Under the pieces are notes generated by a model. The model saw only the letters and a list, made by a program, of their open reading frames with translations, was not told where the DNA came from and did not search any database. From an uncultured Gammaproteobacteria bacterium (GTDB lineage Bacteria > Patescibacteriota > Patescibacteriia > JAHIZJ01), in assembly GCA_964371245.1 (NCBI GenBank), contig CAYJKP010000002.1, positions 257,469 through 321,468 of the forward strand: DNA of 64,000 nt, read 5' to 3'. This document shows positions 5,982 through 32,565 of this stretch, one piece after another. The translations under genes and the position numbers were made by a program. The stretch's first letter is position 1. Every line of letters begins with the position of its first letter.

Positions 5982-6001
5982 CGTGTAAAGTTTATTTTTC
6001 C

Positions 6002-6076
6002 TGGTGGACGATGAGGGATTCGAACCCCCGACCCTTCGGATGTAAACCGAATGCTCTACCGCTGAGCTAATCGTCC
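6002..6076 (-). tRNA. tRNA-Val(TAC)
   Basis: GGACGATTAGCTCAGCGGTAGAGC...TTCGAATCC...CCA; anticodon loop tTTACAt. Confidence 0.8.
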
Positions 6077-6210
6077 GTAAGTCGGAAGATTCGCCTGCCT
6101 ACATGGTATATACAACCATGATTCTCCGTTTCTGACAAGAGGATAGATTCGATGTTTTCCCATATTTTTGTTATAATTCTGAGAGACATAAACAATAATA
6201 CTACGATTCG

Positions 6211-6579
6211 ATGGCTTGTTTACTCGCTCCGACAACAGCGGCAATAATCGTTATGGCAGCCAAGAAAAAGATACCGGCGCGCTATCACATCAACTGGCTT
6301 CTCGCCCTACTCTGGGGCGGGGCGGCCTGGCTCATACCCGAGCATATTTATCACGGTGAGATTGTACTCTACCCGCCCTTCTTTACCGCCGGCTTGTCAA
6401 ATGTCCTCCACGAGGTTATGAGAGTCGGTGTTCCCATGACTTTTGCGGCGGTCACTATATGGCTGGCCATGATCGCGCTCCCAGCAGTATTTAAACGAAA
6501 AACGCTGCAGCCGCGCTTTGCCTATCTGATCGTTATCGGCGCAATAATCATGGTTGCGGTTGACCGTATATTTGCCTGA
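6211..6579 (+). CDS. hypothetical membrane protein
   Basis: 122 aa, 3-4 TM helices. Confidence 0.4.
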   Translation: MACLLAPTTAAIIVMAAKKKIPARYHINWLLALLWGGAAWLIPEHIYHGEIVLYPPFFTAGLSNVLHEVMRVGVPMTFAAVTIWLAMIALPAVFKRKTLQPRFAYLIVIGAIIMVAVDRIFA

Positions 6580-6600
6580 TGCTTTTCTGAAACAATGGCA

Positions 6601-6666
6601 GAAAAGACCCTATAGGGGTCTTTTTCAGTAAATAAAAAGTACCGCTAAGCATTGCGGTATTTTTTC
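6601..6666. terminator. two adjacent terminator hairpins
   Basis: gaaaagaccctataggggtctttttc followed by gtaccgctaagcattgcggtatttttt; marks the host/island boundary. Confidence 0.6.
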
Positions 6667-6782
6667 ATCTAAAACTGGGGGGCCATCCGCCTCTGGCGAG
6701 ATGGGGAAAGGGGCATGCGCCCCAAGGGTGGAGCAGGAGCGACTTGATCGCTCATGCGCAACCCGCAGGGCGCTTTGACCCG

Positions 6783-6839
6783 TGGTGCGCAACGTGGAAC
6801 GAAGTCAGAACTTGGATCCGCGATACGACCGAGTACTTT
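6783..6839. repeat. 57-bp imperfect direct repeat, copy 1 (4 mismatches vs copy 2)
   Basis: tggtgcgcaaNgtggNacgaagtcagaacttggatccgNgatacgacNgagtacttt also present at 8483..8539. Confidence 0.85.
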
Positions 6840-7023
6840 CACATACCTGACTTATCGCCGCCACCGACTACAGCGATTAAACCATATGCTATTCCCTTGC
6901 GGTAGAGCGGGTAAAGTTTCGTTACCGCAACCACTTGTGCATGCCACCTTAACCTAAAGCGTTGGTGTCCTTGTTATTACACAATAAAAGGACCCACCGG
7001 GATGGCAGGTCAGGAACGAGCGA

Positions 7024-7449
7024 CTAGACGTCGTGAACGATGTGGAGGATGTTGGGCACTTGTGTCGGGGGTTCGCCGATCTGAGCGGCAAACGCGGCGA
7101 TGAAGTGCGGCGGGCACTGTACCGTCTTCCAGTGGCAGACGAAAGCTGGACGATCTCTCAAGTCGAGGGATAGTCGTTGAAACGCGAACTTCCCGTTTGG
7201 AACACCTGCCCCATAGCTGATGCTAGTCTGTAGGTCATAGAAGCGGCGATAGTTCCGCAGGTTGAGGCCTTCAGCTTCTGCGATAGCCGCGATGATATAT
7301 TCGGCGCCGCAAATGGTGTTAGGCCCTGCTGTCGAGTGCGGAGCAATTCCGCTAAACACGCAGCATCTACCCGGAAACATGGCGTAGACAAACCTGCCCG
7401 GACCACCCTCGTAGAACGTCAGTTCTTTGAGAACCACAGGGTCTGGCAT
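7024..7449 (-). CDS. hypothetical protein, tandem paralog A (MPD... N-terminus, FSGIAP / IAEAEG motifs)
   Basis: Strong RBS AAGGAGG; ~35% identity to the adjacent upstream gene. Confidence 0.55.
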   Translation of the reverse strand: MPDPVVLKELTFYEGGPGRFVYAMFPGRCCVFSGIAPHSTAGPNTICGAEYIIAAIAEAEGLNLRNYRRFYDLQTSISYGAGVPNGKFAFQRLSLDLRDRPAFVCHWKTVQCPPHFIAAFAAQIGEPPTQVPNILHIVHDV

Positions 7450-7480
7450 ATCCCTCCTTTCTTAGGGGGTATGCGTTGAT

Positions 7481-7897
7481 CTACAGATCGAACGCGTCCC
7501 TGACCTGCCGGGGTGGATGGCCGATCTGTTCGGCAAACACCCGGATAACGTCCTCTGAGCACGTCTCCCCGATCCAGCCGGAAACGAAGTACGGACGGAC
7601 GCCCCATTCGATGTTGAGCTGCGAAAAGGCGAGTTTTCCAGTAGGTGCTTTCGCCCGTCCGTAGCCCAGGCTGGTCTGGAGATCGTAGAAGAGGAATTGA
7701 CTCGGATCAATCCCTTCGGCTTCAGCGATTACCCGGACAATCCCTCCGGCGGCATTCACCGTTGAGGTGCGATTGTGAGGCGGCGTAATACCGCTGAAGA
7801 CGATCCGATTACCCGGAAGTCTGGCATAGACGACCCGCGACGTGCCCTGATTGAAGTTGCGATACTCAGCCTCTTTCAGTACAACCGTATCCGGCAT
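7481..7897 (-). CDS. hypothetical protein, tandem paralog B
   Basis: Start trimmed to the internal ATG (MPDTVVLKEAE) preceded by RBS AGGAGGGAGAT; paralogous to 7024..7449. Confidence 0.55.
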   Translation of the reverse strand: MPDTVVLKEAEYRNFNQGTSRVVYARLPGNRIVFSGITPPHNRTSTVNAAGGIVRVIAEAEGIDPSQFLFYDLQTSLGYGRAKAPTGKLAFSQLNIEWGVRPYFVSGWIGETCSEDVIRVFAEQIGHPPRQVRDAFDL

Positions 7898-8045
7898 ATC
7901 TCCCTCCTTTCCGATGATACAGAAGTACAAGCCACAATAGGCGCAAATGTATAACTTGTCAAGGTGGACACGTACAACACGCCTCACGACACGGAGATGT
8001 GTAACTTATGTTTGATACTATTCATGCCATTCTTGCCATGCAGGA

Positions 8046-8333
8046 TCATCGCATGGTAACAAGATTCGTGTATAAGGTTTTCGAGTGAGCGTTGAGGGTC
8101 TTGCGTAAGGACAATAGGCGTGCCATCGACGGTAGACGGTGGCCACATTCCCAAGCAGAGATGGTGCTGCGATTAGAACCCAAGACACCAGCGAGTGTTC
8201 GCTGGGTCCAGCCAAGACGAAGACGGTAGCTGCGGATAGTGTTGGGATAGCGCGCTTTCGTCTTCGTAAAGCGATGAGTGAATTGTGGACCCATGTATGT
8301 CCTAAAATATATTAGGCGACTACAATCGTTCAA
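8046..8333 (-). CDS. XRE-family helix-turn-helix transcriptional regulator
   Basis: YRLRLGWTQRTLAGVLGSNRSTISAWECGHRLPS matches the HTH_3 signature. Confidence 0.7.
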   Translation of the reverse strand: MNDCSRLIYFRTYMGPQFTHRFTKTKARYPNTIRSYRLRLGWTQRTLAGVLGSNRSTISAWECGHRLPSMARLLSLRKTLNAHSKTLYTNLVTMR

Positions 8334-8482
8334 GTCCCGCTTGCTCTGTGGACAATTGGTTCAGGACGTTCCCGATGCGGTACGTCTCCCATCCTGAGTT
8401 TAGACACACAAAAACCGCTCACCTAAGCGGTTCCCTTGTCTTTATCCCCATGGATGTGTTGCCTCTGTAACGTCTCCCATCA

Positions 8483-8539
8483 TGGTGCGCAAAGTGGGAC
8501 GAAGTCAGAACTTGGATCCGTGATACGACGGAGTACTTT
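8483..8539. repeat. 57-bp imperfect direct repeat, copy 2
   Basis: See 6783..6839; lies between the OLD nuclease stop and the XRE regulator start. Confidence 0.85.
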
Positions 8540-8666
8540 GCGATTCCGAACCTGGAAGAAACGAGCAATTGCCCACCGGCAAAGTCATTATCTCCCATCG
8601 ACCCATAATCTGGTAAGTAGGGGTGAGGTCGCGACTCTGGCACGTCCTGTGGGGGATGTGAGGCAT

Positions 8667-10529
8667 CTACTGCTCGAGTTTCTTCCCGATGGCCTCCAAC
8701 CAACCAACAACCTCCTTCTTCCCACCCCGTTCATCTATCCGCCCCGGCGTCATCGCGTCAACGGCCTCTGTATTCAGCCGTCGTTTTGCCTGGCACACCT
8801 TCTTACCCCGCACTTTCTCGGTCAGGTCGTTCCATGGGGTCTTATGCGGATCGGTCGCAGCGCTATGAGTGGCTTCCGCCACCAACTCTGGGACGTTGCA
8901 GTCGTCTGTCACAGTTACACAAACCGAGAGCTTTGCCTCTATCGCTTCAGCGTGGAGGTAGTTCTCAAGTTCTCGCTTGTTCGTAATGAATGCGATTGAT
9001 CCATCGCTACGCCCGTTCACGCTGTTTGCCTCGCCTTGGTATTTTGGTGGGTCATCTGATCCTCGATCGAACAAGTGGATTTCCGGTATTCCCAAGTTCC
9101 GCAGATAATGGGCGCGGACCCAATCGCGGAGGTTTTCCCCGCCGAGAGCAATGACCGCGATACGTGGATCATTCTCGATATCCGGCAACATAGGCGTTTC
9201 GGAACGGAGGCAGCGGCTCATGCGGGTAAGATGCTGGACATCGTTTGGTCCCTCTACACAGACAAGGACGCGAACGCGGCTGTCAGGGAGTACACCAAGG
9301 TCATCGGCCACTCGTCGATAGGTTGACTCATCGCCAACTTCGATCATGGTCGTGCCGTCGACCGTACGCGTAACGTGCCGAATGCTGCATACGGGAATGA
9401 GGCCCGCAAGTCCTGGGACGTGGGTCGTGAGGATCACCTGACATCCGTCGGTCGTTGCGAGATCCTGCAGAGCTTCAACAAGCATCTTCTGATTTTCAGG
9501 ATGCTGCGAGGCTTCAGGCTCCTCGATCGCATATATGATGCTCGCTTGTCCCTTCTCAAGTCGTCGGCGTTCTGCTTCGGCACGGAAGAAACTGAGCAGG
9601 ACGAGCCGACGAAGTCCGCTACCACGCTTATTCAGTGGAATACCATCATCGCTGTCGAGTGAAAGTTTGAAAATCGAATCCCACTTCGGTTCGTTCTTGA
9701 ACTTAGGTGTGAGAGCAGAGCCGAGTCTCGGGTCGAGCTCCTGGAGCTTCTTCAAAGTACGATCTGCTACTTTGAGAACGGAATCCTGCACCTTGGTCTT
9801 CACGCGTTCTAGGTCGGACATCATCTCCGCGACGGCCTGCTTGACAGCAACCTGCATGGGATCCTGGGCTTCCGTGTCCTCGTCTGTGCTTGGCCGATCC
9901 GCACGGAAAATCGCAAATGCGGGCAGCTGCTGGGAGAGCTGCTCCCATATTGCTTTGGCATCCTCCTTGTTGAGAGGGATCTCGGTCGGTTGAAGGCGCA
10001 GGTCTTCGATCGACGACCGGATGGCAGTCCGGAGGGCGGAGTTGCATCGAAGATCAACGTTGGATGTGCCCACCTTCAAATCCGAAGCACGCTTCTTCAG
10101 ATCGGTGTTCTTCAGAAGAAGGAGATCACCGGCACCCTGGGCGGTCGGGTGAAGTGCCGCGGCCCAGAACCCCCGGTCAGCCACCTTCCCGTCCTTACAC
10201 TCGAAAACCCTATGGATCTCAAGATCTCCATCCGCATTGAGAAGTAGCTCGGCTGAGAGCGTGGTCGTGGCTGTGGCATCGATCACCACCTTGTCGGGGA
10301 GCTCAGTAAAGATGCAGGCAATCCGAACCTCATGATCCGCCGCGTGGACACACTTGTCGCCAGCGTCAAGCTTCAGATTCGGAGCGCCCAAGAAAATTCC
10401 GATGGCGTCGAGGATGCTCGATTTACCAATGTCGTTCTTGCCCACGAGGGCGGTGAGGTCATCGATGGGTATTAGCGTATTGCCGCGATAACCGCGGAAG
10501 TTCTGTAGCTTTACGGCCTTTAATTTCAT
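8667..10529 (-). CDS. OLD-family ATP-dependent endonuclease (N-terminal ABC-type ATPase + C-terminal Toprim), stand-alone
   Basis: Walker A GKNDIGKSS, Walker B IIYAIEEPEASQHP, H-loop ILTTHVP; Toprim-like VLVCVEGPNDVQH ... AVIALGGEN ... LFDRGSDD. Confidence 0.7.
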   Translation of the reverse strand: MKLKAVKLQNFRGYRGNTLIPIDDLTALVGKNDIGKSSILDAIGIFLGAPNLKLDAGDKCVHAADHEVRIACIFTELPDKVVIDATATTTLSAELLLNADGDLEIHRVFECKDGKVADRGFWAAALHPTAQGAGDLLLLKNTDLKKRASDLKVGTSNVDLRCNSALRTAIRSSIEDLRLQPTEIPLNKEDAKAIWEQLSQQLPAFAIFRADRPSTDEDTEAQDPMQVAVKQAVAEMMSDLERVKTKVQDSVLKVADRTLKKLQELDPRLGSALTPKFKNEPKWDSIFKLSLDSDDGIPLNKRGSGLRRLVLLSFFRAEAERRRLEKGQASIIYAIEEPEASQHPENQKMLVEALQDLATTDGCQVILTTHVPGLAGLIPVCSIRHVTRTVDGTTMIEVGDESTYRRVADDLGVLPDSRVRVLVCVEGPNDVQHLTRMSRCLRSETPMLPDIENDPRIAVIALGGENLRDWVRAHYLRNLGIPEIHLFDRGSDDPPKYQGEANSVNGRSDGSIAFITNKRELENYLHAEAIEAKLSVCVTVTDDCNVPELVAEATHSAATDPHKTPWNDLTEKVRGKKVCQAKRRLNTEAVDAMTPGRIDERGGKKEVVGWLEAIGKKLEQ

Positions 10530-10684
10530 AAGGGGAATCTTAGTTGATTATGCCTGCGCGTCAAGCTAGCCCGCTGGAGCGTGCAGTTTGTAGTAGGGGA
10601 CGAGCGTGCTCTTTCCAGTAGGGGTGTAACAGGGGTAATATCAGGCAGTTACAGTCTAGCAGGTTTGTAGCTGTTCTTCGAGAT

Positions 10685-12634
10685 CTAGCGCAATACCACC
10701 TTGGTCCGTTCAAGAAAGGCTGCCAGTTTTGCCTTAAGCCGGCGATCGGTGGGTCGATGCCTGCTGCGCTCCCAATCCAGAACCGTGCTTGGATCAACCT
10801 CCAGCTGTCGGGCAATGTCCGCGTGGGAGAGGCCGAGCCGTCTTCGGGTCGCCCGGAGCTGCTCTCCAATCGTGGACCCGATCTCTGTAGGTTCGTAGCC
10901 TAGGAACCGAATCACTCCCGGGATCGCCCGGAGGTTTGGGGTAGCGGTTCCGACCTCCCAGTTATGGACCGTGGTCTTATCGACGCCGATCCGCAACGCA
11001 ACCTCCCGCTGGAGAAGTCCGAGGTCCAAGCGACGTTTTCGAACGTGGTCGCCGATCGACCGGAGTTCCGTAGGATACGCTCTATCAATGGGTTTCGGCG
11101 TTCGGAGCACGAGATCACAAAATGGCAACGCAGGGGTGACGTTGTGTTGCCCTTTTGTGACGACTTCCGAAGCCGAAGGGAGGTAGCAGAGGTGTATTTC
11201 GACGTCGCCTTTCCCAATCACGATCCGTTCGACGATGTGCTCCACGATCTGTCGCCGGTCTTCGACCGCCAGGGTGGACCATCGGGAATAGAGGTCTTTG
11301 GCCTCGGTCAGGATCTCATCTCGGGAGAGGTACTGGATCTTGAGGAAATCGACGTCTCCCTGGAGTTGTGGGAGCTCTTCCTCGATCTGCTTGAGACGCT
11401 CTTCGAGGGGGCGGTACTGCCTGCCGTACCCTTCGACGGTGATCGCGTCGCTCATATAGGCACGATGGACTTTATCCATCTCCCGGACGACTCGGTCCCG
11501 CTCGGTCTCCATGGTCTGGAGGGTCTCCTCCTTCGCTTTGATCTCCTGGTCGGCCTGGCCGAGGTGTGCCGCGATGTCCTCCGGGGAGAAGAAGAATCCC
11601 TTGAGCTGCTCCTCGAAGACGGTTTCGAGGTCCTCGATCGGGATCTTGTTGCGGCACTTCTGGCAGCCGTACTTTGTCGTCTTCGTGAGGACGTACATCT
11701 TCTGACCGCAGAAGCAGAAGACGAGACCGGCGAAGAGATGGACCGGCTTCTTCGCCTCGCGTTTGCCGTTCCGTCGCCGCTCATCGAGAATCGCGTTCGC
11801 CTGGAGCCAGATTTCTTCGGAGATGATTGGCTCGACTGGAGTTAGGACCCATTCATCCTGCGGCTTGAGCTTCCAGTTCTTCTTCTCGCCGAGGGACTTC
11901 GTGTAGTTCGCCCGGCGGATCCCCTTGGCCATCGGGTCCCGCAGAAGCCGGTCCACAGTTGTATCCGAGAACTTCGAGCCGTTCCGGGTCCGGTAGCCCT
12001 TCTCGTTCAGAAGCCGCGCTACGGCCTTCTTGCGTTTGTGCTCCAAGAAGAGTTCGTACATGAGCTTGCGGACCGGGGCTTCTTTCGGATCCGGGACGAG
12101 CTCCCGATTCTCCCATTGGTAGCCGAAGGGAGCGGCACCGCCGAGGGGCTTGCCGAGTTTCGCCCTGACGGGCACGGACGCCGCCACCCGTTCGGCGATC
12201 TCCTCCCGTTCCCACTGGGCCATCGCCGCGACGACCGTGAAGAAGAGCCGCCCAGCCGGGGTCGAAGTGTCGATCGCCTCCGAGAGGGAGATGAGGTCCG
12301 CCTCGTGATCCCGGAAGATGTCCGCGAACTCCAGAAGCTCTCGGGTGTTTCGGGCGAGCCGCGCGAGCTTCGAGAAGATGAGCGCCGTGATGTGACCACC
12401 TCGGATGTGCTCAAGCATTCGCTCGGTTTCGGGAAGCCCCATGACAGACTTTCCGGAGACCGCTTCGAGGTGGTAGACCTCGCGGACCCGCCAGCCTTTG
12501 GCCTCGGCATACATCCGCGCCCGCTTCTCATGATGTTCAGGACTTTCACCCCTCGCTTGGTCCTCGGTCGAGACGCGGATCCAGATCCCGACCTGCCTTT
12601 GAGTCTGCGGTTCTTCCTTTTGCTGCTTCTTCAT
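10685..12634 (-). CDS. large serine recombinase (resolvase/invertase catalytic domain + recombinase domain + zinc ribbon + coiled coil) fused to two C-terminal XRE HTH domains
   Basis: IWIRVSTEDQ catalytic Ser motif; CFCGQKMY...CQKCRNK zinc ribbon; C-terminal RKRRLDLGLLQREVALRIGVDKTTVHNWE and RRRLGLSHADIARQLEVDPSTVLDWE HTH repeats. Confidence 0.8.
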   Translation of the reverse strand: MKKQQKEEPQTQRQVGIWIRVSTEDQARGESPEHHEKRARMYAEAKGWRVREVYHLEAVSGKSVMGLPETERMLEHIRGGHITALIFSKLARLARNTRELLEFADIFRDHEADLISLSEAIDTSTPAGRLFFTVVAAMAQWEREEIAERVAASVPVRAKLGKPLGGAAPFGYQWENRELVPDPKEAPVRKLMYELFLEHKRKKAVARLLNEKGYRTRNGSKFSDTTVDRLLRDPMAKGIRRANYTKSLGEKKNWKLKPQDEWVLTPVEPIISEEIWLQANAILDERRRNGKREAKKPVHLFAGLVFCFCGQKMYVLTKTTKYGCQKCRNKIPIEDLETVFEEQLKGFFFSPEDIAAHLGQADQEIKAKEETLQTMETERDRVVREMDKVHRAYMSDAITVEGYGRQYRPLEERLKQIEEELPQLQGDVDFLKIQYLSRDEILTEAKDLYSRWSTLAVEDRRQIVEHIVERIVIGKGDVEIHLCYLPSASEVVTKGQHNVTPALPFCDLVLRTPKPIDRAYPTELRSIGDHVRKRRLDLGLLQREVALRIGVDKTTVHNWEVGTATPNLRAIPGVIRFLGYEPTEIGSTIGEQLRATRRRLGLSHADIARQLEVDPSTVLDWERSRHRPTDRRLKAKLAAFLERTKVVLR

Positions 12635-12644
12635 CGGACTACAC

Positions 12645-15600
12645 CTATTTCTTGTCGCCCTTCAGGCGTTTCATAGCCTTGGCGATCACCTGGGAGACCG
12701 CATCTCGTTTGGCGGTCTTGTCCTGCTCCGTAACCGACTTATACTTCACTTTCACTTTGTAACCGCGAACCGTCCCAGATGTGCTCGCGGCTTCAGCCTC
12801 GATTCCTTCGAGCACCGCGAACGCCTCCTCCGGAGTCGAGAAATGCACGCGCTTCAATTCATCTTCCGAGAGAGTATTCGCCGCGAGCTGTCTGATCTTG
12901 GTCAGCGCCTTCTTCTCGGATGACACGACCACGATTTGCTCGAATCCGGCCGCGAGGCACTTCTGTACATTCCCGAGTTCGTGGTCCGGTGTCGTCGTGA
13001 CCGCGATCTCGCAGGCGACAGATCGGTCGCCCTTCCGCAGGGCCACGTCCACGCTTCCGAGTCCGTCGAGGATCTTCTCCTCGATGGTTGCCCGCCACTC
13101 CCGAGACTCGGCCCAACGCTTCAGGAGTTCCTGCAGATACTTGTGCTGCTGACCACCCCGACCTGGAGTTGGTATAGCTGACGGCGGCAACTGGGGTGGC
13201 TCCGCCCGCTTCGGTCGTTCGGTACTGGTTGGCGTCGGGACCGGCGGGGAAGGTGCGAGGATAGTCGCGCTCTGCGGGACGGGCTCGGCAGGTCGGACCG
13301 GGACCCGGCCGGGAACGGAGCGCTGAAGGATCGCCTCGATCTCTTCCCGCCTCATCGCATACTTCTCGCGCGATTGGGAAATGACCGCATTCCTGCGGCT
13401 GCGAGCCTCTTGAGGATCGACCTCAGCAAGCCTCGGAGTATCGAGGTTGAAGTCGAATTCCGCCCGTTCGACCCTGGCGATGGCCTGGCCGATTCCGAGG
13501 TTCTGGAGGTCCTTGGCTTCATAGGAGGCGAAACCTTCATTGAGGGTACGGGCGTCCTGATCGCCCACCCGGAAACAGATCCTGGTATATGGATTCGACA
13601 GCACGGAGCTCAGAACCTCCGGGCTCTTGCTCCCGATTTGCCGGAGGTCCTGATGCGCCAGGACCAGACCCAGCCGGTACTTGCGCGCACCCGAAAGGAT
13701 CTGCTCCATCGTGGGCGTGACGAAGTTCTGAAATTCGTCGATGTAGACGTAGAATGGCCGGCGTTCAGCTTCAGCCACCTCCTGGCGGCTCATCGCTATC
13801 TGCTGAAGTTTGGAAACGAGGAGACTGCCAAGAAGATGCGCGTTCTCCTCGCCAATCGCACCTTGGGAGAGCCGGGCGAGGAGGATCTTCCCCTCATCCA
13901 TCATCCGGCGGAAGTCGAGCCGGTCATCCTTCTGCGCGACCATATATCGGATGAGTTTGGGTCGGAGAAACGTGTCGAGACGGGTGAGGATCGACGCCTG
14001 AGGATTCCCTTTGAGGAGCTGGAACTCCTTCTGCCAGTAGTACACGACGTCCGGATCACGGACGGTTGCGAGGAATTCGTCACGGAAACTCTTCTCCACG
14101 AGGAACCGGCGAAGATCGACGAGAGTGCCGCCCCGGTCGCTTTCGAGGAAGGCGAGGATCGCGTTCCCCAGAACCGAGGTCATCTGATCGCCCCACGAGG
14201 TGGAGAGCCTGCGGAAGACAGCGGCAAGATCGGAGGAGAGAAGCGTCTTTTCGAGCTCGGAGTGCGCCGAGAGTATGTTGAATCCTACCGAGTATTCGGT
14301 ATCGGCGGGATCGAAGAGGATGACGTCATCGATCCGCTCTTCCGGCACTCTCTCCAGGATCTGGTCGATGAGGTCCCCGTGCGGGTCTAGGACGGCGACA
14401 CCCTGGCCCGTCTTCAGATCCTGGAGGATGAGATTCAGAAGGAGCGTGGACTTGCCGGTGCCCGACGCACCGATGACGTACATGTGTCGGGACCGTTGAT
14501 CGGGAGTGAGTGCAACCTCCACGGTCTTTCCGGCATGAGCGTTTATGCCGAGAAGGAGCCCGGAACCTGTTGCGATCGCCGGCGCAGCCCGCGTCTTCCG
14601 TTGCTCGCGCTTCAGTTTCTCGACGCGGACCGAGGCCGAAGGCGGGTGAACCAAGGAGACGAGCTCCTCCGTGTTCAGAATCATTCCGCTCCGGCGGGAT
14701 CGCCGAAGAATGAAATCCTCCATGTGATCGGTGTTCTCGTACCCGTCGTTCGATAGTGGGATGAGCTCGTTTCCGGCCGGATTCCCGAAGGTCTTGAGGC
14801 TTCCACCGATGGCCCGGGCGAATTCCCAGACCCGTCCCGGATCGGGACTGGTGACTCCGAGCCTGACCACAGAGGCGAAGAGAGGGTGCGCAACCTTCGC
14901 CTTGGCCGCCGCCGCGATCTCGGGTGCATCGAAGAAGAAGGGGTTCCCCTCATCGTCCAGGGCCGAGTTCATGATGCTCTCGGCCCATGCATGCCGGACC
15001 GGCTGGAAGAGGATCTGCAGGACGGCGATCTCGCCCTCCTCGAGATCGGAAAGGGCCGACGTGACTCCGATCAAGGGGTCGATGTCGAAACCCTTGAAGG
15101 TCCGGAGCGGCAGCATGAATTCCCTGGAGAGCCCGAAGTCCACGATGATCGTCTGAGCTCCCTCAAGCTCGGCCCACTGGGACAGTAGGAATTCGGGTTC
15201 GCTGGTGATGACCACTTCGGGGAAGTGGCCTTTGAGCTGCTGGGAGATCTTGGAGGCGTCCTGTTCCCGCACCGCGACCTGGATTGTGATGGAATCCGGG
15301 AGGCCGATGACCTCATAGGAGAGCGGCCCCACGGCGACGGGAAGACTGCGCAGGAACTGCTCGACTGCTTCCCGGGCGACCTTGAACGGGGGTGGAACGG
15401 AGAGCCGCAACTCGGCGATCGGGAACTCATCCTCCAGTGCATCAGGTTCGGGCTCACGCACGTCGGCGATTGGCGCGTCGTCTGTCGGGGAGGTTCGTGG
15501 CTGACCCGTTACCAGGCTCCGAAGTCCGTCGGTGAGATTGCTGAGCAGGGTTGGCCTGCGGCCGTCATCGACCTTGGATCGGATCGGTGGGACCCGGTGC

Positions 15601-15779
15601 ATCCGAAATGGAGCGAACGGCGGTTCCAGCTCGACCGGATATGGAAAGACCTGCCAGCCCCGGCCGCGCTTTTCCCACGTGTAGAACTGTGCGGTAAGGC
15701 GCTCAATCTGAGTCGGGGGACCTCCCAGGACGGAGGTCTCTGCCTTCTCCCAGGGAATCAGATCCCGATCGTCTTCCAT
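12645..15779 (-). CDS. large FtsK/HerA/T4CP-like P-loop ATPase with unknown N-terminal region and possible C-terminal nuclease-like domain
   Basis: Walker A GASGTGKST, VLDPHGDL (DPKGD-like), Walker B YIDEFQNF, ARKYRLGLVLAHQ arginine-finger region typical of TraD/VirD4/HerA; C-terminal RSVACEIAVTTTPDHELGN... may be a PD-(D/E)xK-like fold. Confidence 0.55.
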   Translation of the reverse strand: MEDDRDLIPWEKAETSVLGGPPTQIERLTAQFYTWEKRGRGWQVFPYPVELEPPFAPFRMHRVPPIRSKVDDGRRPTLLSNLTDGLRSLVTGQPRTSPTDDAPIADVREPEPDALEDEFPIAELRLSVPPPFKVAREAVEQFLRSLPVAVGPLSYEVIGLPDSITIQVAVREQDASKISQQLKGHFPEVVITSEPEFLLSQWAELEGAQTIIVDFGLSREFMLPLRTFKGFDIDPLIGVTSALSDLEEGEIAVLQILFQPVRHAWAESIMNSALDDEGNPFFFDAPEIAAAAKAKVAHPLFASVVRLGVTSPDPGRVWEFARAIGGSLKTFGNPAGNELIPLSNDGYENTDHMEDFILRRSRRSGMILNTEELVSLVHPPSASVRVEKLKREQRKTRAAPAIATGSGLLLGINAHAGKTVEVALTPDQRSRHMYVIGASGTGKSTLLLNLILQDLKTGQGVAVLDPHGDLIDQILERVPEERIDDVILFDPADTEYSVGFNILSAHSELEKTLLSSDLAAVFRRLSTSWGDQMTSVLGNAILAFLESDRGGTLVDLRRFLVEKSFRDEFLATVRDPDVVYYWQKEFQLLKGNPQASILTRLDTFLRPKLIRYMVAQKDDRLDFRRMMDEGKILLARLSQGAIGEENAHLLGSLLVSKLQQIAMSRQEVAEAERRPFYVYIDEFQNFVTPTMEQILSGARKYRLGLVLAHQDLRQIGSKSPEVLSSVLSNPYTRICFRVGDQDARTLNEGFASYEAKDLQNLGIGQAIARVERAEFDFNLDTPRLAEVDPQEARSRRNAVISQSREKYAMRREEIEAILQRSVPGRVPVRPAEPVPQSATILAPSPPVPTPTSTERPKRAEPPQLPPSAIPTPGRGGQQHKYLQELLKRWAESREWRATIEEKILDGLGSVDVALRKGDRSVACEIAVTTTPDHELGNVQKCLAAGFEQIVVVSSEKKALTKIRQLAANTLSEDELKRVHFSTPEEAFAVLEGIEAEAASTSGTVRGYKVKVKYKSVTEQDKTAKRDAVSQVIAKAMKRLKGDKK

Positions 15780-15787
15780 GGTTCACC

Positions 15788-16498
15788 CTAGCCACGCAGA
15801 AAATCCCGCATGATTGGCTTCTTCTCTTCGTCCGTCAGAGCCCGCAGCCCCTTCGCCGTTGTGAGGCCATCGATGACCTCGGTCACCGCGGAGTGCATCG
15901 CCGACTGGAACATGAGCATCGTGTCGATGCGATAGTAGGTAAGCGGACGGAAGAACCGCTCATAGAGCGGCCCGAGGAGCGGGACCGCCAGGATTGGATC
16001 ATCGGCATCCATATCGAGTGCCTTGGTAGCGGCTCGATAGACGTACCAAACGACGATGAGGGTCACAAGCGTGATGAGAAGTCGTATCAGGAAGTACGGG
16101 CCACGGATGTGTTGACCGTGCCGGCCGAGTTGCATGAGAATATTCACGATTCCGCTGTGGACCGCGTAGTAGGCGACGAGAGTACCGAGGAGGATCGCCC
16201 AGCAAAGCCATCTTGGCGGGCGCTTCTCTCCCACCCACCACGAAAAAAAGAACCCCGTCCCGAAGGGCGCGGCGCAGAGGTCGAAGGCGAGCTTCTGCCT
16301 GGTGACGCGAAGGTACTCCCGCTTGGCGGAGAGGACCCCGCCCTCGTGCCAGTCCACCCGTGACGTGGAGATCCCGGGGGTCTGACGGCGTTGGAGCGCC
16401 GCCTCGACGGAGGTATAGAAGTCGAGCGCGGACGTCTGGAAGTTGTCGTAGGGCTTTTGCCAATGCGAGAACAGATTGGCCAACAAGGGCTTAGGCAT
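15788..16498 (-). CDS. hypothetical integral membrane protein, translationally coupled to the downstream ATPase
   Basis: 236 aa, about 4 TM helices; stop 8 nt before the ATPase start. Confidence 0.45.
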   Translation of the reverse strand: MPKPLLANLFSHWQKPYDNFQTSALDFYTSVEAALQRRQTPGISTSRVDWHEGGVLSAKREYLRVTRQKLAFDLCAAPFGTGFFFSWWVGEKRPPRWLCWAILLGTLVAYYAVHSGIVNILMQLGRHGQHIRGPYFLIRLLITLVTLIVVWYVYRAATKALDMDADDPILAVPLLGPLYERFFRPLTYYRIDTMLMFQSAMHSAVTEVIDGLTTAKGLRALTDEEKKPIMRDFLRG

Positions 16499-16579: not shown

Positions 16580-19500
16580 CTACGACTCCGCCCAGCCCTG
16601 GGAGAGTACTTCCGCCTGCTCAAGGACAGTTTGTGTCGCCTTCTCTTGCTTGTCCGGTGGGTAGCCATATTTGCGCAGGATGCGCTTGACGATCGTTCGC
16701 AGGTGCGCGCGCACATTCTCCCGCTGGGTCCAGTCGATCGTTACGTTGCTCCGAACGGAATCCACCAGTTCGCGGGCAATCGTGCGGAGCGTTTCGTCTC
16801 CAAGCACTTGCACAGCACTATCATTGACGCCGAGCGCATCGTAGAACGCTACTTCGTCCTCGTTGAGTCCGAGCTTCTCCCCGCGCTGGTTCGCCTTGCG
16901 CATCTCCTTGGCAAGACCGATCAGCTCCTCAATGACTTGAGCTGTTTCGATGGCGCGATTTTGGTAGCGTCGGATGGACTGCTCAAGTAGCTCAGCGAAG
17001 GAACGGGCCTGAACAACGTTCTTCAGGCGCCGGCTTCGAATCTCCCCGCTGAGCAGCTTGCGCAGCAGTTCGACGGCGAGGTTCTTCTGCGGCATCCCCC
17101 GGATCTCGGTCAAGAACTCGTCCGAGAGGATTGAGATGTCGGGCTTCTTGAGACCCGCGGCGGCGAAAATGTCCACGACTTCGTCGGAGGCGACCGCCTC
17201 GGAGACGATCTGTCGAATCGCGTGCTCGATCTCCTCGGGGGACTTGCGGTCGCCGGGCACGTTCTTCACCAGCACCGAGCGCACGGCTTGGAAGAATCCC
17301 ACATCGTCGCGGATTCGGATAGACTCCAAGTGCGGAACAGCCAGGGCAAACGCCGCCGACAGTTCGCCTACGGCTTGAACAAGCCGATTCTTGCCGTCCG
17401 GCTGGGTCAGAACGTGCTCCTGTGCGATAGGCAGCAGGCTGAGACGATCCGCCGGCTTGCCGTCCTTCCATTTCGTCCACTCAAAGCCGTGGAAGATACC
17501 GCAGCAGATCTCATACTTCTCAAGCATGACGGAGACGGCCTCACTCTGGTCAATCGTAGTGTCACCCTTGCCGCCACTCTCGGTGTAGTTTGCGAGTGCC
17601 TTGCGGAGCTCATCAGCGAGCCCGAGGTAGTCGACGACCAAACCGCCCGGCTTGTCCTTGAAGACACGGTTGACACGGGCAATCGCCTGCATGAGTCCGT
17701 GGCCCTGCATCGGCTTGTCGATATACATAGTGTGGAGGCAAGGCGCGTCGAATCCGGTCAGCCACATGTCGCGCACGATCACGATCTTGAACGAGTCCGC
17801 CGGATTCTTGAACCGCTCCGCCAGCGTCTCACGTCGGGCTTTGTTACGGATGTGCTCCTGCCAGTCTTCCGGGTCGGCGGCCGCACCGGTCATCACGACC
17901 TTTACCACACCCTTGTCGTCGTCCTCGTTGCGCCAATTGGGCCGCAGAGCGACGATGGCGTCGTAGAGTTCGACGCAGATGCGCCGGCTCATGCACACCA
18001 CCATAGCCTTGCCGTCAATTGCGGACAGGCGTTGCTCGAAGTGACTTATGAGATCCGCAGCGATGATATTGATTCGCTTCTCGGTGCCGACCAATGCCTC
18101 GAGTTGGGCCCACCTCGTCTTCAGCTTCTCCTTGTGTGAAACCTCCTCGCCTTCAGTGGCCTCCTCGAATGCCGCATCAAGCACAGCATGTTGGCTGTTC
18201 CTCAATTCGAGCTTGGCGAGACGGCTTTCGTAGTAGATCGGCACAGTCGCACCGTCTTGGACCGCACGCTGGATGTCATAGACGGAGATGTAGTCGCCGA
18301 ACACTGCCCGTGTGTTCTTGTCCGTCAGCTCGATCGGCGTGCCGGTGAATCCTATGAATGAGGCGTTAGGCAGGGCGTCGCGCATGTGCCGCGCGAACCC
18401 GTCGATAAAGTCGTACTGGCTCCGGTGTGCTTCGTCGGCGATAACAACGACATTTCGCCGGTCTGAGAGCAGCGGGTGCATGTCCCCGCGTTCTTCGGGG
18501 AAGAATTTCTGAATCGTAGTAAAAATCACACCCCCAGCGTCGCGGTGCAGTAGCTGTCGCAGCTGAGAGCGGCTTTCGGCCTGATCGGGAGGCTGACGTA
18601 AAAGGTCTCTGCAGCGGGAGAAGGTTCCGAAGAGTTGCCCGTCCAAGTCATTCCGATCAGTGAGGACCACGATGGTTGGATTACGCATTTCCGGCTGAAG
18701 CACAACCCTGCCCGCATAGAAAGCCATGGTCAGGCTCTTGCCGGACCCTTGAGTGTGCCAGACGACGCCGATCCGACGATCACCGGGTTTCGCCTGGTTC
18801 GATTCTTGGTCGCGGCGCTCGTCTCGACCGTCGCCGATCCGGTCGGAACTCTCAGCTATAGCCGCGCGGAGGGTCTCCTCCACTGCTACGTTGACCGCAT
18901 GGTACTGGTGGTAACCAGCCATCTTCTTTAGCAGCAGCCCGCCGCCCATGTCCTCGAACACGAGAAAGTACCTGATGAGATCGAGAAATCGACGCTTCTC
19001 GAAAATGCCTTCGATGACCACCTGGGCCTCCGGTAGACGCCGATCGGCAAGCTCCCCTCCGGTGATCGTGCGCCAGGGCATGAACCACTCGCGTTCAGCC
19101 GTAAGAGTCCCCACTCGGGCCTGGACGCCATCCGAGATGATGAGTGCTTCGTTGAAGGCAAATAGAGACGGGATTTCCCGCTTATATGTTTGAAACTGAC
19201 GAAAGGCAGACCAGATTGTTGCCATCTCATCTGCCGGATTCTTGAGTTCGATCGCAGCAAGCGGGAGGCCGTTGACGAACACGACGACATCGGGTCGCCG
19301 GTTGTTCCGGTTCTCCATCACAGTGAACTGATTAACAACGAGCCAATCGTTGTTGTTGGGATTCATGTAGTCAAGAAGCTGCGCTTGCGCACCTGCGATC
19401 GTCCCATCTGGACGGCGGTACTCGACTGTGACGCCGTCGACAAGCATCAAGTGTGCGGCATGGTTAGTTGTGACCAGCAGAGGCGACGTTATCCGAGTTA

Positions 19501-19720
19501 CCTTCCGAAATGCTTCATCGACCGCGTCGCCCGGGAGATCGGGGTTCAGTCGCGTCAGCGCGGAGCGAAGGCGATCCTCAAGGATGACCTGGCTGTAATC
19601 GGACCTTTCAGAGCTCGGTTCCCCCGGGGCCATGTCTGGACCGAATCGCGTGCCGTAGCCAAGCCCATCAAACCAGATCAGCACGGCGTCCTCTACTTCA
19701 GATTCGATGAATTTCGTCAT
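16580..19720 (-). CDS. hsdR: type I restriction enzyme R subunit HsdR
   Basis: HsdR N-terminal domain ([22 protein letters not shown]), SF2 helicase motifs ([15 protein letters not shown]), C-terminal T1RH-like region. Confidence 0.9.

Positions 19721-21671: not shown

Positions 21672-21672
<1 letters not shown>
19717..21672 (-). CDS. unknown 651-aa protein embedded in the type I R-M operon, C-terminal double TM anchor
   Basis: Overlaps the hsdS stop by 1 nt and the hsdR start by 4 nt; no P-loop; two C-terminal TM helices; occupies the PrrC/RloC position. Confidence 0.5.
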
Positions 21673-22956
<1,284 letters not shown>

Positions 22957-22973
<17 letters not shown>

Positions 22974-30541: not shown

Positions 30542-30624
30542 CGGCGTTTTGGCGTTCGAACGTCGTCCCCACTTGCGCGTTTCCGAACTTAAAGAGAGAA
30601 TTGCGTTTAGCCAACCATACACCC

Positions 30625-32199: not shown

Positions 32200-32565
32200 T
32201 TACGGCTTGCGTTTTGCCTTTTTCGGCTCCACCACATCTTTCAACGGCCGGGCTTTCTTGTCCCGCAAATAATACAGCTTGGCGCGCCGCACTTTGCCTT
32301 GTTTCACAGCTTCGATCTTGGCGATCTGCGGCGAGTGCAACGGGAATATGCGTTCAACTCCAATGCCTTCGGAAATCTTGCGCACGATCATGGTTGCGTT
32401 TAACCCTGCCCCGCCGTGCCGGGCGATAATTAACCCCTCAAAAACCTGAATCCGTTCCTTGTCCCCCTCTTTCACTTTTTGGTGCACGCGCACGGTCAGG
32501 CCCGGTTTTAAATCCGGCAGATCGGTCTTGCGTTTTTGTTGCTCCTGCTCTTTAATAACGTCCAT
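32200..32565 (-). CDS. rplS: 50S ribosomal protein L19
   Basis: [47 protein letters not shown] conserved L19 core. Confidence 0.85.

What the first reader, a model, noticed from the sequence alone, without database searches (positions are those of the whole stretch)
8667..10529. Stand-alone OLD-family (ABC ATPase + Toprim) nuclease on the island
The ATPase motifs are complete and the Toprim acidic residues are present. There is no adjacent UvrD-like helicase, so this is not a Gabija GajAB pair. It therefore looks like a class 1 OLD or a fused PARIS-like (AriA-AriB) single-gene defense. It lies directly downstream of the recombinase.
Basis: partly seen in the sequence, partly recalled or inferred. 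Interest (0 to 1): 0.55.

Follow-up and report, generated by a model that had tools for sequence, protein, structure and literature searches.

The report
Stand-alone OLD-family ATPase-nuclease defence gene
The gene encodes a single-protein OLD-family enzyme, an ATP-driven switch fused to a hard-to-detect Toprim nuclease, of the kind bacteria use against phages; it is an uncharacterised but ordinary member of a known family.

Summary
The ORF at 8667-10529 (minus strand, 620 aa) is real and intact.

- **ATPase half.** Residues 1-374 are an OLD-type ABC ATPase (Pfam AAA_15, 4e-73). Every nucleotide-binding motif is invariant or nearly so (97-100%) in 200 relatives.
- **C-terminal half.** No Pfam model detects residues 398-620 in this protein. 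An AlphaFold model (pLDDT 91) matches only the Toprim-plus-helical-domain C-terminal regions of the class 2 OLD nucleases of Xanthomonas and Burkholderia. A 39%-identical enterobacterial relative passes Pfam's cut-off for OLD-like_TOPRIM.
- **Active site.** E426, D430, D488, T516, E522 and K582 are invariant or nearly so. The second Asp of the Toprim DxD motif is Gly here, as in 22% of the family.
- **Partners.** No UvrD/GajB helicase, reverse transcriptase or AriB-like partner is present. Across 111 related loci no neighbour is conserved.

By gene context it is therefore a class 1 (stand-alone) OLD nuclease. It is not Gabija and not a fused PARIS system, because it shows no DUF4435 signal.

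About 14% of relatives have BREX type 3 or type I restriction genes in their flanks, often with the gene inside the operon, in bacteria and archaea. In this window a type I system lies 6 kb upstream on the same mobile island.

The likely role is a phage-triggered, ATP-gated nuclease. Its trigger and substrate are unknown. It is a new member of a known kind and of modest interest.

The parts
8667..10529 (-). Complete gene for a 620-aa OLD-family protein (ABC ATPase + Toprim + helical domain), including the stop codon at 8667-8669
   Evidence: ORF list and translation. Full-length relatives at 49-61% identity. Best whole-chain structural match is 6P74, the Thermus scotoductus OLD nuclease.
9345..10529 (-). 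N-terminal OLD-type ABC ATPase, residues 1 to about 395, with a predicted helical insertion at residues 224-272 (the counterpart of the OLD dimerisation domain)
   Evidence: Pfam AAA_15 4e-73 over residues 1-374. A family profile hits the PDB chains of Ts OLD (1.8e-19) and GajA (6e-12). AlphaFold secondary structure. Motif invariance in 200 relatives.
10419..10442 (-). Walker A codons, G30 to S37 (GKNDIGKS)
   Evidence: G30 and K36 are 200/200 conserved; S37 is 194/200.
9513..9524 (-). Walker B and catalytic Glu codons, E336-E337-P338-E339 (IEEPE)
   Evidence: E336 is 199/200; E337 and E339 are 200/200. Aligns with IEEPE of Ts OLD.
8970..9281 (-). Toprim core, residues about 417-520: four strands (421-425, 457-461, 483-487, 512-515) alternating with helices. 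E426 (9252-9254) and D430 (9240-9242) follow strand 1. D488 (9066-9068) and G490 (9060-9062) follow strand 3. T516 (8982-8984) follows strand 4.
   Evidence: AlphaFold model of residues 398-620, pLDDT 91.4. Foldseek best hits are 6NJV/6NJX/6NJW and 6NK8, the class 2 OLD C-terminal regions. PF20469 is passed by the 39%-identical relative over its residues 423-494. Residue conservation.
8670..8969 (-). C-terminal helical domain, residues 521-620. It starts with the ENYLH helix (E522 at 8964-8966, H526 at 8952-8954) and contains the near-invariant K582 (8784-8786).
   Evidence: Helices predicted at 521-524, 527-534, 546-557, 571-587, 589-592, 595-600 and 604-619. The whole 223-aa region aligns to the Toprim-plus-helical-domain regions of Bp and Xcc OLD. 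K582 is 198/200. Equating E522 with Bp E508 and K582 with Bp K562 is an inference from position and spacing.
10537..10564 (-). Promoter-like site (TTGACG, 16 nt, TAAGAT) ending 8 nt before the ATG. It suggests the gene has its own promoter and a very short leader.
   Evidence: Consensus scan only: 5 sites found against 1.8 expected in the region. Weak evidence.

Best explanation
The gene encodes a self-contained OLD-family nuclease carried as cargo on an integrated mobile element.

**Shown or strongly supported**
- The N-terminal ABC ATPase has every catalytic motif intact. It also has a helical insertion of the kind that dimerises Thermus OLD.
- It is fused to a Toprim nuclease fold followed by a helical domain, arranged as in the C-terminal regions of the Burkholderia and Xanthomonas OLD nucleases.
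- The gene has no conserved partner gene, so it most likely works alone.

**Inferred from the characterised OLD enzymes (P2 Old, Ts OLD, Vc OLD, GajA)**
- The protein idles as an oligomer.
- A phage-derived cue changes the ATP-binding or hydrolysis state of the ATPase heads.
- That licenses the Toprim site to cut nucleic acid by metal-ion catalysis, using E426 and D488 at metal A, D430, T516 and E520/E522 at metal B, and K582 as the general acid or charge stabiliser.
- Cutting blocks phage replication or kills the infected cell.

**Open points**
- The substrate is not determined. I favour DNA nicking or cleavage over tRNA cleavage, roughly 60:40, because the C-terminal region resembles the DNA-cutting class 2 enzymes.
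- The trigger is unknown. Because relatives are repeatedly built into BREX type 3 and type I restriction operons, a phage anti-restriction protein is a reasonable candidate.

**What the confidence covers.** The value 0.65 is for the whole statement, including autonomous anti-phage nuclease function. For the narrower claim that this is an OLD-family ATPase-Toprim protein I would give about 0.85.
For: **Domain identity**
- AAA_15 at 4e-73.
- PADLOC Old 1.3e-24 and GajA models about 1e-22. Two GajA models align through the Toprim region: query 292-563 to profile 261-541 of 604, and 250-558 to 248-525 of 600.
- A family profile against PDB ranks Ts OLD 1.8e-19, then GajA 6e-12, AriA 2e-4 and Eco8 OLD 5e-4.
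- The whole-protein model is closest to 6P74, then GajA and Eco8 OLD.
- The C-terminal model is closest to 6NJV, 6NJX, 6NJW and 6NK8, at probability 1.0 over about 224 columns.
- PF20469 is passed by a 39%-identical relative (29.2 bits against a 23.2 cut-off) and is weakly hit by 8 of 26 close relatives.
- hhalign of the family against P2 Old gives 96.5% probability, and against YbjD 85.9%. Both put the VEG glutamate on the Toprim glutamate.

**Selection on the active site**
- E426, G427, D430, D488, T516 and E522 are 200/200. K582 is 198/200.

**Stand-alone status**
- No neighbour family occurs in more than 7 of 86 loci.
- Of the window's neighbouring genes, only the recombinase (2 loci) and the 95-aa HTH protein (1 locus) have relatives in the 111 related loci.

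**Defence and mobile context**
- Relatives lie next to an integrase and AlpA, CBASS, an nSTAND-Mrr protein, GmrSD, in a Tn7-like element on enterobacterial plasmids, and next to a type I system carrying a SIR2 gene.
- 9 loci carry BREX type 3 genes and 6 carry type I restriction genes, out of 111.
- 26 loci lie in predicted viral contigs.

**Published function of stand-alone OLDs**
- PMC12392090 (Vc OLD, a DNA nickase that needs its ATPase and Toprim residues).
- PMC12445682 (P2 Old, which cleaves tRNA).
- PMC7049728 and PMC6755086 (two-metal mechanism).
- PMC12839542 (OLD/Toprim modules embedded in BREX as back-up effectors).
Against: - No Pfam or PDB sequence profile detects the C-terminal region of this protein itself.
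- C-terminal-only profile comparisons with P2 Old and YbjD are not significant, at 1-21% probability.
- Foldseek TM-scores to the class 2 regions are modest, 0.42-0.51.
- The second Asp of DxD is Gly. The equivalent D470A mutation abolished defence by Vc OLD. By contrast, the single D457A change had no discernible effect on Bp OLD cleavage in vitro, where that Asp contacts the metal only through water.
- The mapping of T516, E522 and K582 onto published catalytic residues rests on position and spacing, not on a superposition. I could not obtain coordinates.
- I found no experimental study of this family.
Confidence: 0.65

Rival explanations
1. It is a restriction-linked back-up module. The protein is not autonomous but guards or complements an adjacent restriction-type system (type I here, BREX type 3 elsewhere). 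It fires when a phage anti-restriction protein disables that system, as PrrC does in EcoprrI or PARIS does with Ocr.
For: - 15 of 111 related loci carry BREX type 3 or type I genes.
- In L015, L016, L018 and L023 the gene sits between pglXI and brxHII with junctions of 0-9 bp or, in L023, overlapping ORF calls.
- In L053 and L084 it sits between hsdM and hsdS with overlapping junctions. In L059 it is also between them, but with gaps of 777 and 239 bp.
- The Vibrio plasmid copy abuts hsdM.
- In the window a type I operon lies 6 kb upstream on the same strand.
- The literature describes OLD/Toprim modules embedded in BREX as back-up effectors.
Against: - About 86% of loci show no such neighbour in the flanks held (up to 5-8 kb).
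- In the window three unrelated genes and a separate promoter-like site lie between the restriction operon and this gene.
- Embedding in restriction operons is common for many unrelated defence genes, so it shows shared location rather than a shared mechanism.
Confidence: 0.15
2. The nuclease is crippled. Because the second Asp of DxD is Gly, the protein acts mainly through its ATPase, by sensing, binding or toxicity, as reported for E. coli YbjD.
For: - G490 in this protein.
- D470A abolishes Vc OLD defence.
- The YbjD Toprim domain is dispensable.
Against: - All other predicted active-site residues are 100% invariant, including in the 44 relatives that carry Gly. No other column co-varies with position 490, so the site is still under selection.
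- In Bp OLD this Asp is an outer-sphere ligand, and its single mutation is silent in vitro.
- The archaeal OLD Cran1 is an active nickase with Leu in place of the first Asp of the motif.
Confidence: 0.1
3. It is a fused PARIS system, with AriA and AriB in one chain. It would sense a DNA-mimic anti-restriction protein and release a tRNA-cleaving Toprim domain.
For: - The best PADLOC hit is AriA, 1.6e-58.
- The EGxxD motif after strand 1.
- The restriction-linked contexts listed under the first rival.
Against: - The AriA hit covers only residues 1-372 of a 373-position profile, close in span and length to Pfam AAA_15 (374 positions); that this PADLOC model is just a generic ATPase model is my inference.
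- No DUF4435 hit for the query or for 26 relatives. The AriAB model is hit by 1 of 26 at E 0.027.
- PDB AriA ranks far below Ts OLD and GajA.
- AriB is absent from the structural hits.
- No clear split versions of the C-terminal region were found.
Confidence: 0.04
4. It is an orphan Gabija GajA that has lost GajB, or uses a GajB encoded elsewhere.
For: - The C-terminal region is class 2-like: Toprim plus a helical domain with a conserved Lys.
- Many GajA profiles are hit.
- In one published phylogeny class 2 is nested inside class 1.
Against: - No UvrD-like gene lies next to this gene. In the related loci no recurrent UvrD-like neighbour turned up; the only recurrent helicase is the BREX BrxHII SNF2 helicase, in 7 loci.
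- The ATPase half is closer to Ts OLD than to GajA.
- The loss would have to be family-wide.
Confidence: 0.04
5. It has a housekeeping, non-defence role such as chromatin or cell-cycle function, like the archaeal OLD protein Cran1.
For: - The family is present in archaea as well as bacteria.
- Cran1 shows that OLD proteins can have non-defence roles.
Against: - The distribution is patchy across many phyla, on plasmids, transposons, viral contigs and islands, with no conserved neighbour.
- Here it lies on a G+C-atypical integrated element.
Confidence: 0.02

Closest known systems
Thermus scotoductus OLD (PDB 6P74), class 1 OLD nuclease
   Same: - Single stand-alone gene.
- ABC ATPase with a helical insertion, followed by a Toprim domain.
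- Best whole-chain match by sequence profile (1.8e-19) and by fold (8.9e-18).
- An acidic residue four positions after the Toprim Glu (Ts D381, here D430).
   Different: [quoted passage not shown] Its charge-stabilising residue is an Arg in a loop.
- This protein is 620 aa, has a helical domain of about 100 aa with a conserved Lys, and has Gly for the second Asp of DxD.
- Sequence similarity stops at the end of the ATPase.
Burkholderia pseudomallei and Xanthomonas campestris OLD C-terminal regions (PDB 6NK8, 6NJV), class 2 / GajA
   Same: - They are the only significant structural matches to residues 398-620. The matches cover Toprim plus helical domain end to end.
- The residue pattern matches: Glu, acidic at +4, Asp after strand 3, Thr after strand 4, Glu in the first helix of the helical domain, Lys in a late helix. 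The spacings are similar (E400 to K562 is 162 residues; E426 to K582 is 156).
   Different: - Class 2 genes always have a UvrD-like helicase (GajB) downstream. None was found beside this gene or recurring beside its relatives.
- No helix is predicted between helix 3 and strand 4, where class 2 has its Insert 3.
- The motif after strand 4 is T-x-K-x-E-x-E rather than T-x-E.
- TM-scores are only 0.42-0.51.
P2 Old, Vibrio cholerae Vc OLD and E. coli YbjD (characterised stand-alone OLDs)
   Same: - Same domain order and stand-alone context.
- hhalign probability 96.5% to P2 Old and 85.9% to YbjD, with the Toprim Glu aligned.
- Carried on mobile or prophage DNA, like P2 Old.
   Different: - The C-terminal region alone does not match P2 Old or YbjD significantly; I had no Vc OLD sequence to compare.
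- Their triggers and substrates differ from one another (RecBCD inhibition and tRNA for P2 Old; DNA nicking for Vc OLD; Toprim dispensable in YbjD), so none can simply be transferred.
Enterobacterial plasmid protein WP_001239419.1 ('AAA family ATPase' / 'OLD family endonuclease')
   Same: - 39% identity over 583 residues, including the Toprim and ENYL motifs.
- Same architecture.
- Lies in the cargo of a Tn7-like element on conjugative or mobilisable plasmids.
   Different: - It has a canonical D-S-D motif and passes Pfam OLD-like_TOPRIM.
- Its last 30 or so residues do not align.
- It is uncharacterised as far as I could find.
PARIS (AriA + AriB, class 4 OLD) and HEC-04 (fused ABC ATPase-Toprim)
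   Same: - An ABC ATPase coupled to a Toprim effector.
- Found embedded in other defence systems.
- HEC-04 is a validated single-gene defence with the same logic.
   Different: - AriB is a DUF4435-type Toprim protein encoded by a separate gene. No DUF4435 signal is present here.
- HEC-04 is shorter (Toprim Glu at 319) and was not among the best 25 of 137 PADLOC hits shown.

Membership tests
OLD family nucleases (any class) | N-terminal ABC-type ATPase with Walker A, Q-loop, signature, Walker B/catalytic Glu and H-loop | tested here: met
   AAA_15 at 4e-73. All motifs are 97-100% conserved in 200 relatives. Profile hits to the PDB chains of Ts OLD and GajA.
OLD family nucleases (any class) | C-terminal Toprim fold (four-stranded parallel sheet with flanking helices) | tested here: met
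   AlphaFold model at pLDDT 91 with strand-helix alternation. Foldseek top hits are the OLD C-terminal regions 6NJV and 6NK8, at probability 1.0. PF20469 is passed by the 39%-identical relative and weakly hit by 8 of 26 relatives. The query itself gives no Pfam hit.
OLD family nucleases (any class) | Toprim Glu after strand 1 with an acidic residue at +4, and the DxD motif after strand 3 | tested here: inconclusive
   E426, D430 and D488 are invariant. The second Asp is G490 in this protein, and D/G is 154/44 in the family.
OLD family nucleases (any class) | Metal-B ligands (Ser/Thr and Glu after strand 4) and a Lys/Arg reaching the active site | tested here: inconclusive
   T516 and E522 are invariant; E520 and K582 are 97-99% conserved. 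Equivalence to Bp T506, E508 and K562 is inferred from position and spacing, without a superposition.
OLD family nucleases (any class) | ATPase activity and metal-dependent nuclease activity | not testable with these tools
   Needs biochemistry.
Class 1 OLD | Single isolated gene with no conserved partner | tested here: met
   No neighbour family in more than 7 of 86 loci. Of the window's neighbouring genes, only the recombinase (2 loci) and the 95-aa HTH protein (1 locus) have relatives in the 111 related loci.
Class 1 OLD | Shorter protein lacking the C-terminal helical domain (as in Ts OLD) | tested here: not met
   620 aa, with predicted helices at 521-619 that align to the class 2 helical domain. 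This is a structural trait of the one solved class 1 enzyme, not the formal definition of the class.
Class 2 OLD / Gabija GajA | [quoted passage not shown] | tested here: not met
   Downstream ORFs are a 95-aa HTH protein and two unknown ORFs of 168 and 141 aa. No GajB hit. No recurrent UvrD-like neighbour turned up in related loci.
Class 3 OLD (retron Eco8 type) | Adjacent reverse transcriptase and retron non-coding RNA | tested here: not met
   No RT domain in the 19 neighbouring ORFs scanned (the small ORFs between 6080 and 8700 were not all scanned). Rfam finds only a tRNA in 6000-11000. The NCBIfam Eco8 effector model scores 22.6 bits against a cut-off of 250.
Class 4 OLD / PARIS (AriA-AriB, split or fused) | DUF4435-type Toprim (AriB) partner or domain | tested here: not met
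   No PF14491 hit for the query or 26 relatives at E up to 10. The AriAB model is hit by 1 of 26 at E 0.027. No AriB chain among the fold hits.
MADS (methylation-associated defence system) | MAD6, MAD7 and MAD8 together; MAD3 ATPase | tested here: not met
   NCBIfam MAD3 scores 28 bits against a cut-off of 420. Only a mad8-like P-loop region occurs, in the 1044-aa neighbour. The neighbours scanned against PADLOC gave no mad6 or mad7 hit (hsdR, hsdS and hsdM were not scanned there).

The most novel reading that the evidence does not exclude
This 600-640-aa family would be a distinct, uncharacterised OLD clade with three traits: stand-alone gene context, a class 2-like Toprim-plus-helical C-terminal region that current domain models miss, and a Toprim site that tolerates loss of the second DxD aspartate. 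The family comprises about 1,100 clusters at 50% identity and occurs in bacteria and in methanogenic archaea. On this reading its ATPase would be a sensor of phage anti-restriction proteins. That would explain why it is repeatedly built into BREX type 3 and type I restriction operons. It would be a single-chain functional analogue of PARIS that arose independently.
Probability: 0.2. Interest if true: 0.55.

Novelty: new member of a known kind. Interest (0 to 1): 0.3.

Why it matters
Stand-alone (class 1) OLD nucleases are the least understood branch of a family that includes Gabija, PARIS and retron effectors. Only P2 Old, Vc OLD and YbjD have been tested, and each behaves differently.

This gene belongs to a widespread branch that annotation pipelines mostly label only 'ATP-binding protein', because its nuclease domain escapes Pfam. 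At least 554 relatives were found among genomes that each represent one species. Defence-system censuses may therefore undercount it.

Two features give concrete, cheap experiments:
- The natural D/G polymorphism at the second DxD position bears on which Toprim ligands are really needed.
- The recurrent embedding in BREX type 3 and type I operons bears on what OLD ATPases sense.

For the window itself, the finding adds one more probable defence gene to a mobile island that already carries a type I restriction system.

Tried and rejected
- **Direct detection of the C-terminal domain.** Pfam on residues 386-620 at E up to 10 gave nothing. A profile of 26 C-terminal regions against all PDB sequences gave only a chance hit. 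phmmer of the C-terminal region of the enterobacterial relative against PDB gave nothing.
- **C-terminal-only hhalign.** Against P2 Old and YbjD, with a 26- or 218-sequence profile, probabilities were 1-21%. One alignment was a spurious match of ENYLHP to the P2 Walker B region. Only the full-length profile carried the alignment into the Toprim domain.
- **Foldseek against viral structures.** The C-terminal model gave no hit at E below 0.001; an RloB-like protein scored E 0.06.
- **MADS.** Considered because the mad3, mad8 and mad1 models gave hits to this protein and two of its neighbours. Rejected because MAD6 and MAD7 gave no hit and the MAD3 score is far below the cut-off.
- **A system formed with the upstream recombinase, the 1044-aa TraD-like protein or the 236-aa ORF.** Rejected because the TraD-like protein and the 236-aa ORF never accompany a relative, and the recombinase has relatives in only 2 of 111 loci.
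- **Split versions of the Toprim region.** All but one of the seven short database hits inspected begin inside the end of the ATPase and are fragments; P0144 begins with Met near the linker and is ambiguous.
- **A compensating acidic residue in the Gly490 variants.** No column co-varies with position 490.
- **Island att sites.** Only a 19-nt imperfect repeat (6547-6565 and 32387-32405) was found, and it may be chance.
- **Organism.** I did not identify the organism of the window.
Full report
**The observation.** The window has an ORF of 620 codons on the minus strand, from ATG 10529 to the stop at 8667-8669. Its first residues (MKLKAVKLQNFRGY) and its length match those of more than a hundred full-length relatives at 49-61% identity. 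These come from Eisenbacteria, Planctomycetota, Actinomycetota, Bacillota and others, so the gene is intact and the start is right.

It lies 155 bp downstream of a large serine recombinase with two C-terminal HTH domains, on the same strand (10685-12634). A sigma-70-like match sits just upstream of its ATG (10564-10537). That is weak evidence for a separate promoter.

The surrounding segment, about 6.1-32.2 kb, looks like an integrated mobile element:
- It is bounded by tRNA genes.
- Its G+C is 55-65%, against about 50% outside.
- It carries a second serine recombinase, phage-like replication and recombination genes, and a type I restriction system.

**The ATPase half.** Residues 1-374 match Pfam AAA_15 end to end at 4e-73. 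The following are invariant or nearly so in 200 aligned relatives:
- Walker A (G30, K36, S37)
- Q222
- the signature S304-G305
- Walker B and catalytic Glu (E336-E337-P338-E339)
- Q342-H343
- H370

A family profile searched against all PDB sequences ranks Thermus scotoductus OLD first (1.8e-19), then GajA (6e-12), PtuA, AriA (2e-4) and the Eco8 OLD (5e-4). A full-length AlphaFold model (pLDDT 84.5) is closest to 6P74, then to GajA and the Eco8 OLD nuclease. Long helices at 224-272 occupy the place of the OLD dimerisation insertion. I did not test that domain separately.

**The C-terminal half.** It is also the least trivial part of the analysis.

Sequence searches fail on this region:
- The last 235 residues hit no Pfam family even at E 10.
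- A profile of 26 C-terminal regions finds no PDB chain.

Four independent lines nevertheless show a Toprim nuclease domain of the OLD type.

1. A model of residues 398-620 is confident (pLDDT 91.4). It has four strands alternating with helices, followed by a helical bundle.
2. Its only meaningful structural matches are the C-terminal regions of the class 2 OLD nucleases of Xanthomonas (6NJV, 6NJX, 6NJW) and Burkholderia (6NK8). These matches have probability 1.0, cover about 224 columns, and have TM-scores of 0.42-0.51. Everything else is noise.
3. A relative common on enterobacterial plasmids (WP_001239419.1) is 39% identical over 583 residues, including this region. It passes Pfam's gathering cut-off for OLD-like_TOPRIM. 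In addition, 8 of 26 close relatives hit that family weakly, and none hits DUF4435.
4. hhalign of the whole-family profile runs from the ATPase into the Toprim of P2 Old (96.5% probability) and YbjD (85.9%). In both, VCVEG falls on their LLVEG.

C-terminal-only comparisons with these two proteins are not significant. I report that as a limit of the sequence evidence.

**The active site.**
- After strand 1 come E426-G427 and D430. After strand 3 comes D488. After strand 4 comes T516, followed by K518, E520 and E522-N523-Y524 in a short helix.
- E426, G427, D430, D488, T516 and E522 are 200/200 conserved. E520 is 195/200. K582, in a late helix, is 198/200.
- These positions parallel the published ligands. 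Metal A is Bp E400, D455 and D457, or Ts E377, D431 and D433. Metal B is Bp E404, T506 and E508, or Ts D381, S478 and E480. The lysine is Bp K562.
- The spacing also agrees: E to K is 162 residues in Bp OLD and 156 here.
- This mapping is an inference. I could not superpose coordinates.

The one departure is the second Asp of DxD, which is Gly in this protein. The family has D at 154 and G at 44 of 200 positions. No other column co-varies with it, and there is no consistent compensating acidic residue.

Published data on that position point both ways:
- In Bp OLD that Asp binds metal A only through water, and D457A alone has no discernible effect in vitro.
- In Vc OLD, D470A abolishes defence.
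- Cran1 is an active nickase with Leu at the first position of the motif.

Because every other residue stays invariant in the Gly variants, I consider the site functional, perhaps as a nickase.

**Partners and class.**
- The ORFs downstream are a 95-aa HTH protein (8046-8333) and two paralogous unknowns.
- Upstream lie the recombinase, a 1044-aa DUF8128/TraD-like P-loop protein, a 236-aa unknown, and then hsdR.
- None is a UvrD-like helicase, a reverse transcriptase or a DUF4435 protein.

I compared 86 loci, most of them from a scan of genomes that each represent one species. That scan confirmed 554 relatives, including Methanosarcina and Methanomethylovorans. Clustering all flanking ORFs found no neighbour family present in more than 7 loci. 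After adding the 26 loci from predicted viral contigs, none of the window's neighbouring genes recurs next to any relative in 111 loci, apart from the recombinase (2 loci) and the 95-aa HTH protein (1 locus).

Five annotated contexts show typical defence or mobile surroundings:
- an integrase with AlpA
- CBASS with an nSTAND-Mrr protein
- GmrSD with an IS110 element
- the cargo of a Tn7-like element
- a type I system with an inserted SIR2 gene

By the context definition used in the field, this is a class 1 OLD. Structurally its C-terminal region is class 2-like, because it has the helical domain that Ts OLD lacks. It shows no predicted Insert 3 helix. That mix fits a published phylogeny in which class 2 is nested within class 1 and at least eleven clades remain unnamed.

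A profile of the C-terminal region finds 1,113 clusters at 50% identity. Full-length members are 595-640 aa. Seven of the short hits were inspected; all but one begin inside the end of the ATPase and are fragments, so I found no clear split, AriB-like form.

**A recurring context.**
- In L015, L016, L018 and L023 the gene is inserted between pglXI and brxHII of complete BREX type 3 operons, with junctions of 0-9 bp or, in L023, overlapping ORF calls. The hosts are a Thermodesulfobacteriota MAG, Methanosarcina, Methanomethylovorans and Thermoanaerobaculia.
- Five further loci carry partial or rearranged versions.
- In L053, L059 and L084 it lies between hsdM and hsdS. The junctions overlap in L053 and L084; in L059 the gaps are 777 and 239 bp.
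- PADLOC confirms the BREX and type I assignments at E from 0 to 6e-60.
- In all, 15 of 111 loci (14%) are linked to BREX type 3 or type I systems.
- In the window the type I operon is 6 kb upstream on the same strand.

OLD/Toprim modules embedded in BREX, and defence genes embedded in other systems generally, have already been described and read as back-up effectors. This fits known biology. It is a lead for the trigger, not proof.

**Mechanism and confidence.** I am confident (about 0.85) that this is an OLD-family ATPase-Toprim protein. I am fairly confident (about 0.65) that it acts alone as an ATP-gated, phage-triggered nuclease. Trigger and substrate are open. I lean to DNA over tRNA because of the class 2-like catalytic region, but P2 Old and AriB show that tRNA is a real alternative.

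Noticed in passing
window 6783-6839 and 8483-8539: A 57-nt direct repeat, 93% identical, with unrelated flanks. One copy lies 128 nt past the OLD stop codon and the other near the left end of the island. Together they bracket a 1.7-kb segment that holds the HTH gene and two paralogous ORFs. There are no other copies in the window and no Rfam match. Its function is unknown; it could be a recombination site or a duplicated regulatory element.
   Followed up: partly
window 7481-7987 (-) and 7024-7449 (-): Two tandem paralogous ORFs of 168 and 141 aa. They share motifs such as PDxVVLKE and FSGIxP. Neither hits any family in Pfam, PADLOC, NCBIfam or PHROGs, and the 168-aa ORF, the only one of the two checked, is not found beside OLD relatives.
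   Followed up: partly
window 19717-21672 (-): An unknown 651-aa ORF sits inside the type I restriction operon, between hsdS (21672-22973) and hsdR (16580-19720), with overlapping junctions. It hits no family in Pfam, PADLOC or NCBIfam. A SIR2 gene occupies the same slot in a Vibrio plasmid type I operon. It is possibly an embedded defence gene.
   Followed up: partly
window 12645-15779 (-) and 15788-16498 (-): A 1044-aa protein with DUF8128 and a TraD/VirD4/HerA-like P-loop region (PADLOC mad8 5e-21; NCBIfam CD1115-type coupling protein 9e-16). It is preceded by a 236-aa ORF with no family hit. No other conjugation genes lie nearby. It could be an uncharacterised defence pair or a mobilisation pair.
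   Followed up: partly
window 10685-12634 (-) and 30601-32187 (+): Two large serine recombinases on one island. The first carries two C-terminal XRE-type HTH domains, an unusual fusion. The 3' end of the second ORF overlaps tRNA-Leu (32098-32183) on the opposite strand. A 19-nt imperfect repeat at 6547-6565 and 32387-32405 might mark the ends of the island, or it might be chance.
   Followed up: no
L015, L016, L018, L023 (about 4.1-14.8 kb of each); L053, L059, L084: Relatives of the gene are inserted inside complete BREX type 3 operons, between pglXI and brxHII, in bacteria and in methanogenic archaea. Others are inserted between hsdM and hsdS of type I systems. In L016 the BREX locus also holds a variable 597-aa ORF between brxC and pglXI, with a weak SIR2-like PADLOC hit.
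   Followed up: yes
L008 (E. coli plasmid NZ_CP047128.1, 29133-30959): A 608-aa relative lies in the cargo region of a Tn7-like element (a transposase, an ATP-binding protein, TnsD and a TniQ-like gene upstream), next to the sil silver-resistance genes, with a small HTH gene upstream. tblastn with the window protein matches 372 plasmid records, 294 of them conjugative, mostly from Salmonella, Escherichia and Enterobacter; the enterobacterial ones listed are about 39% identical. It is variously named AAA family ATPase, OLD family endonuclease or TOPRIM domain protein.
   Followed up: partly
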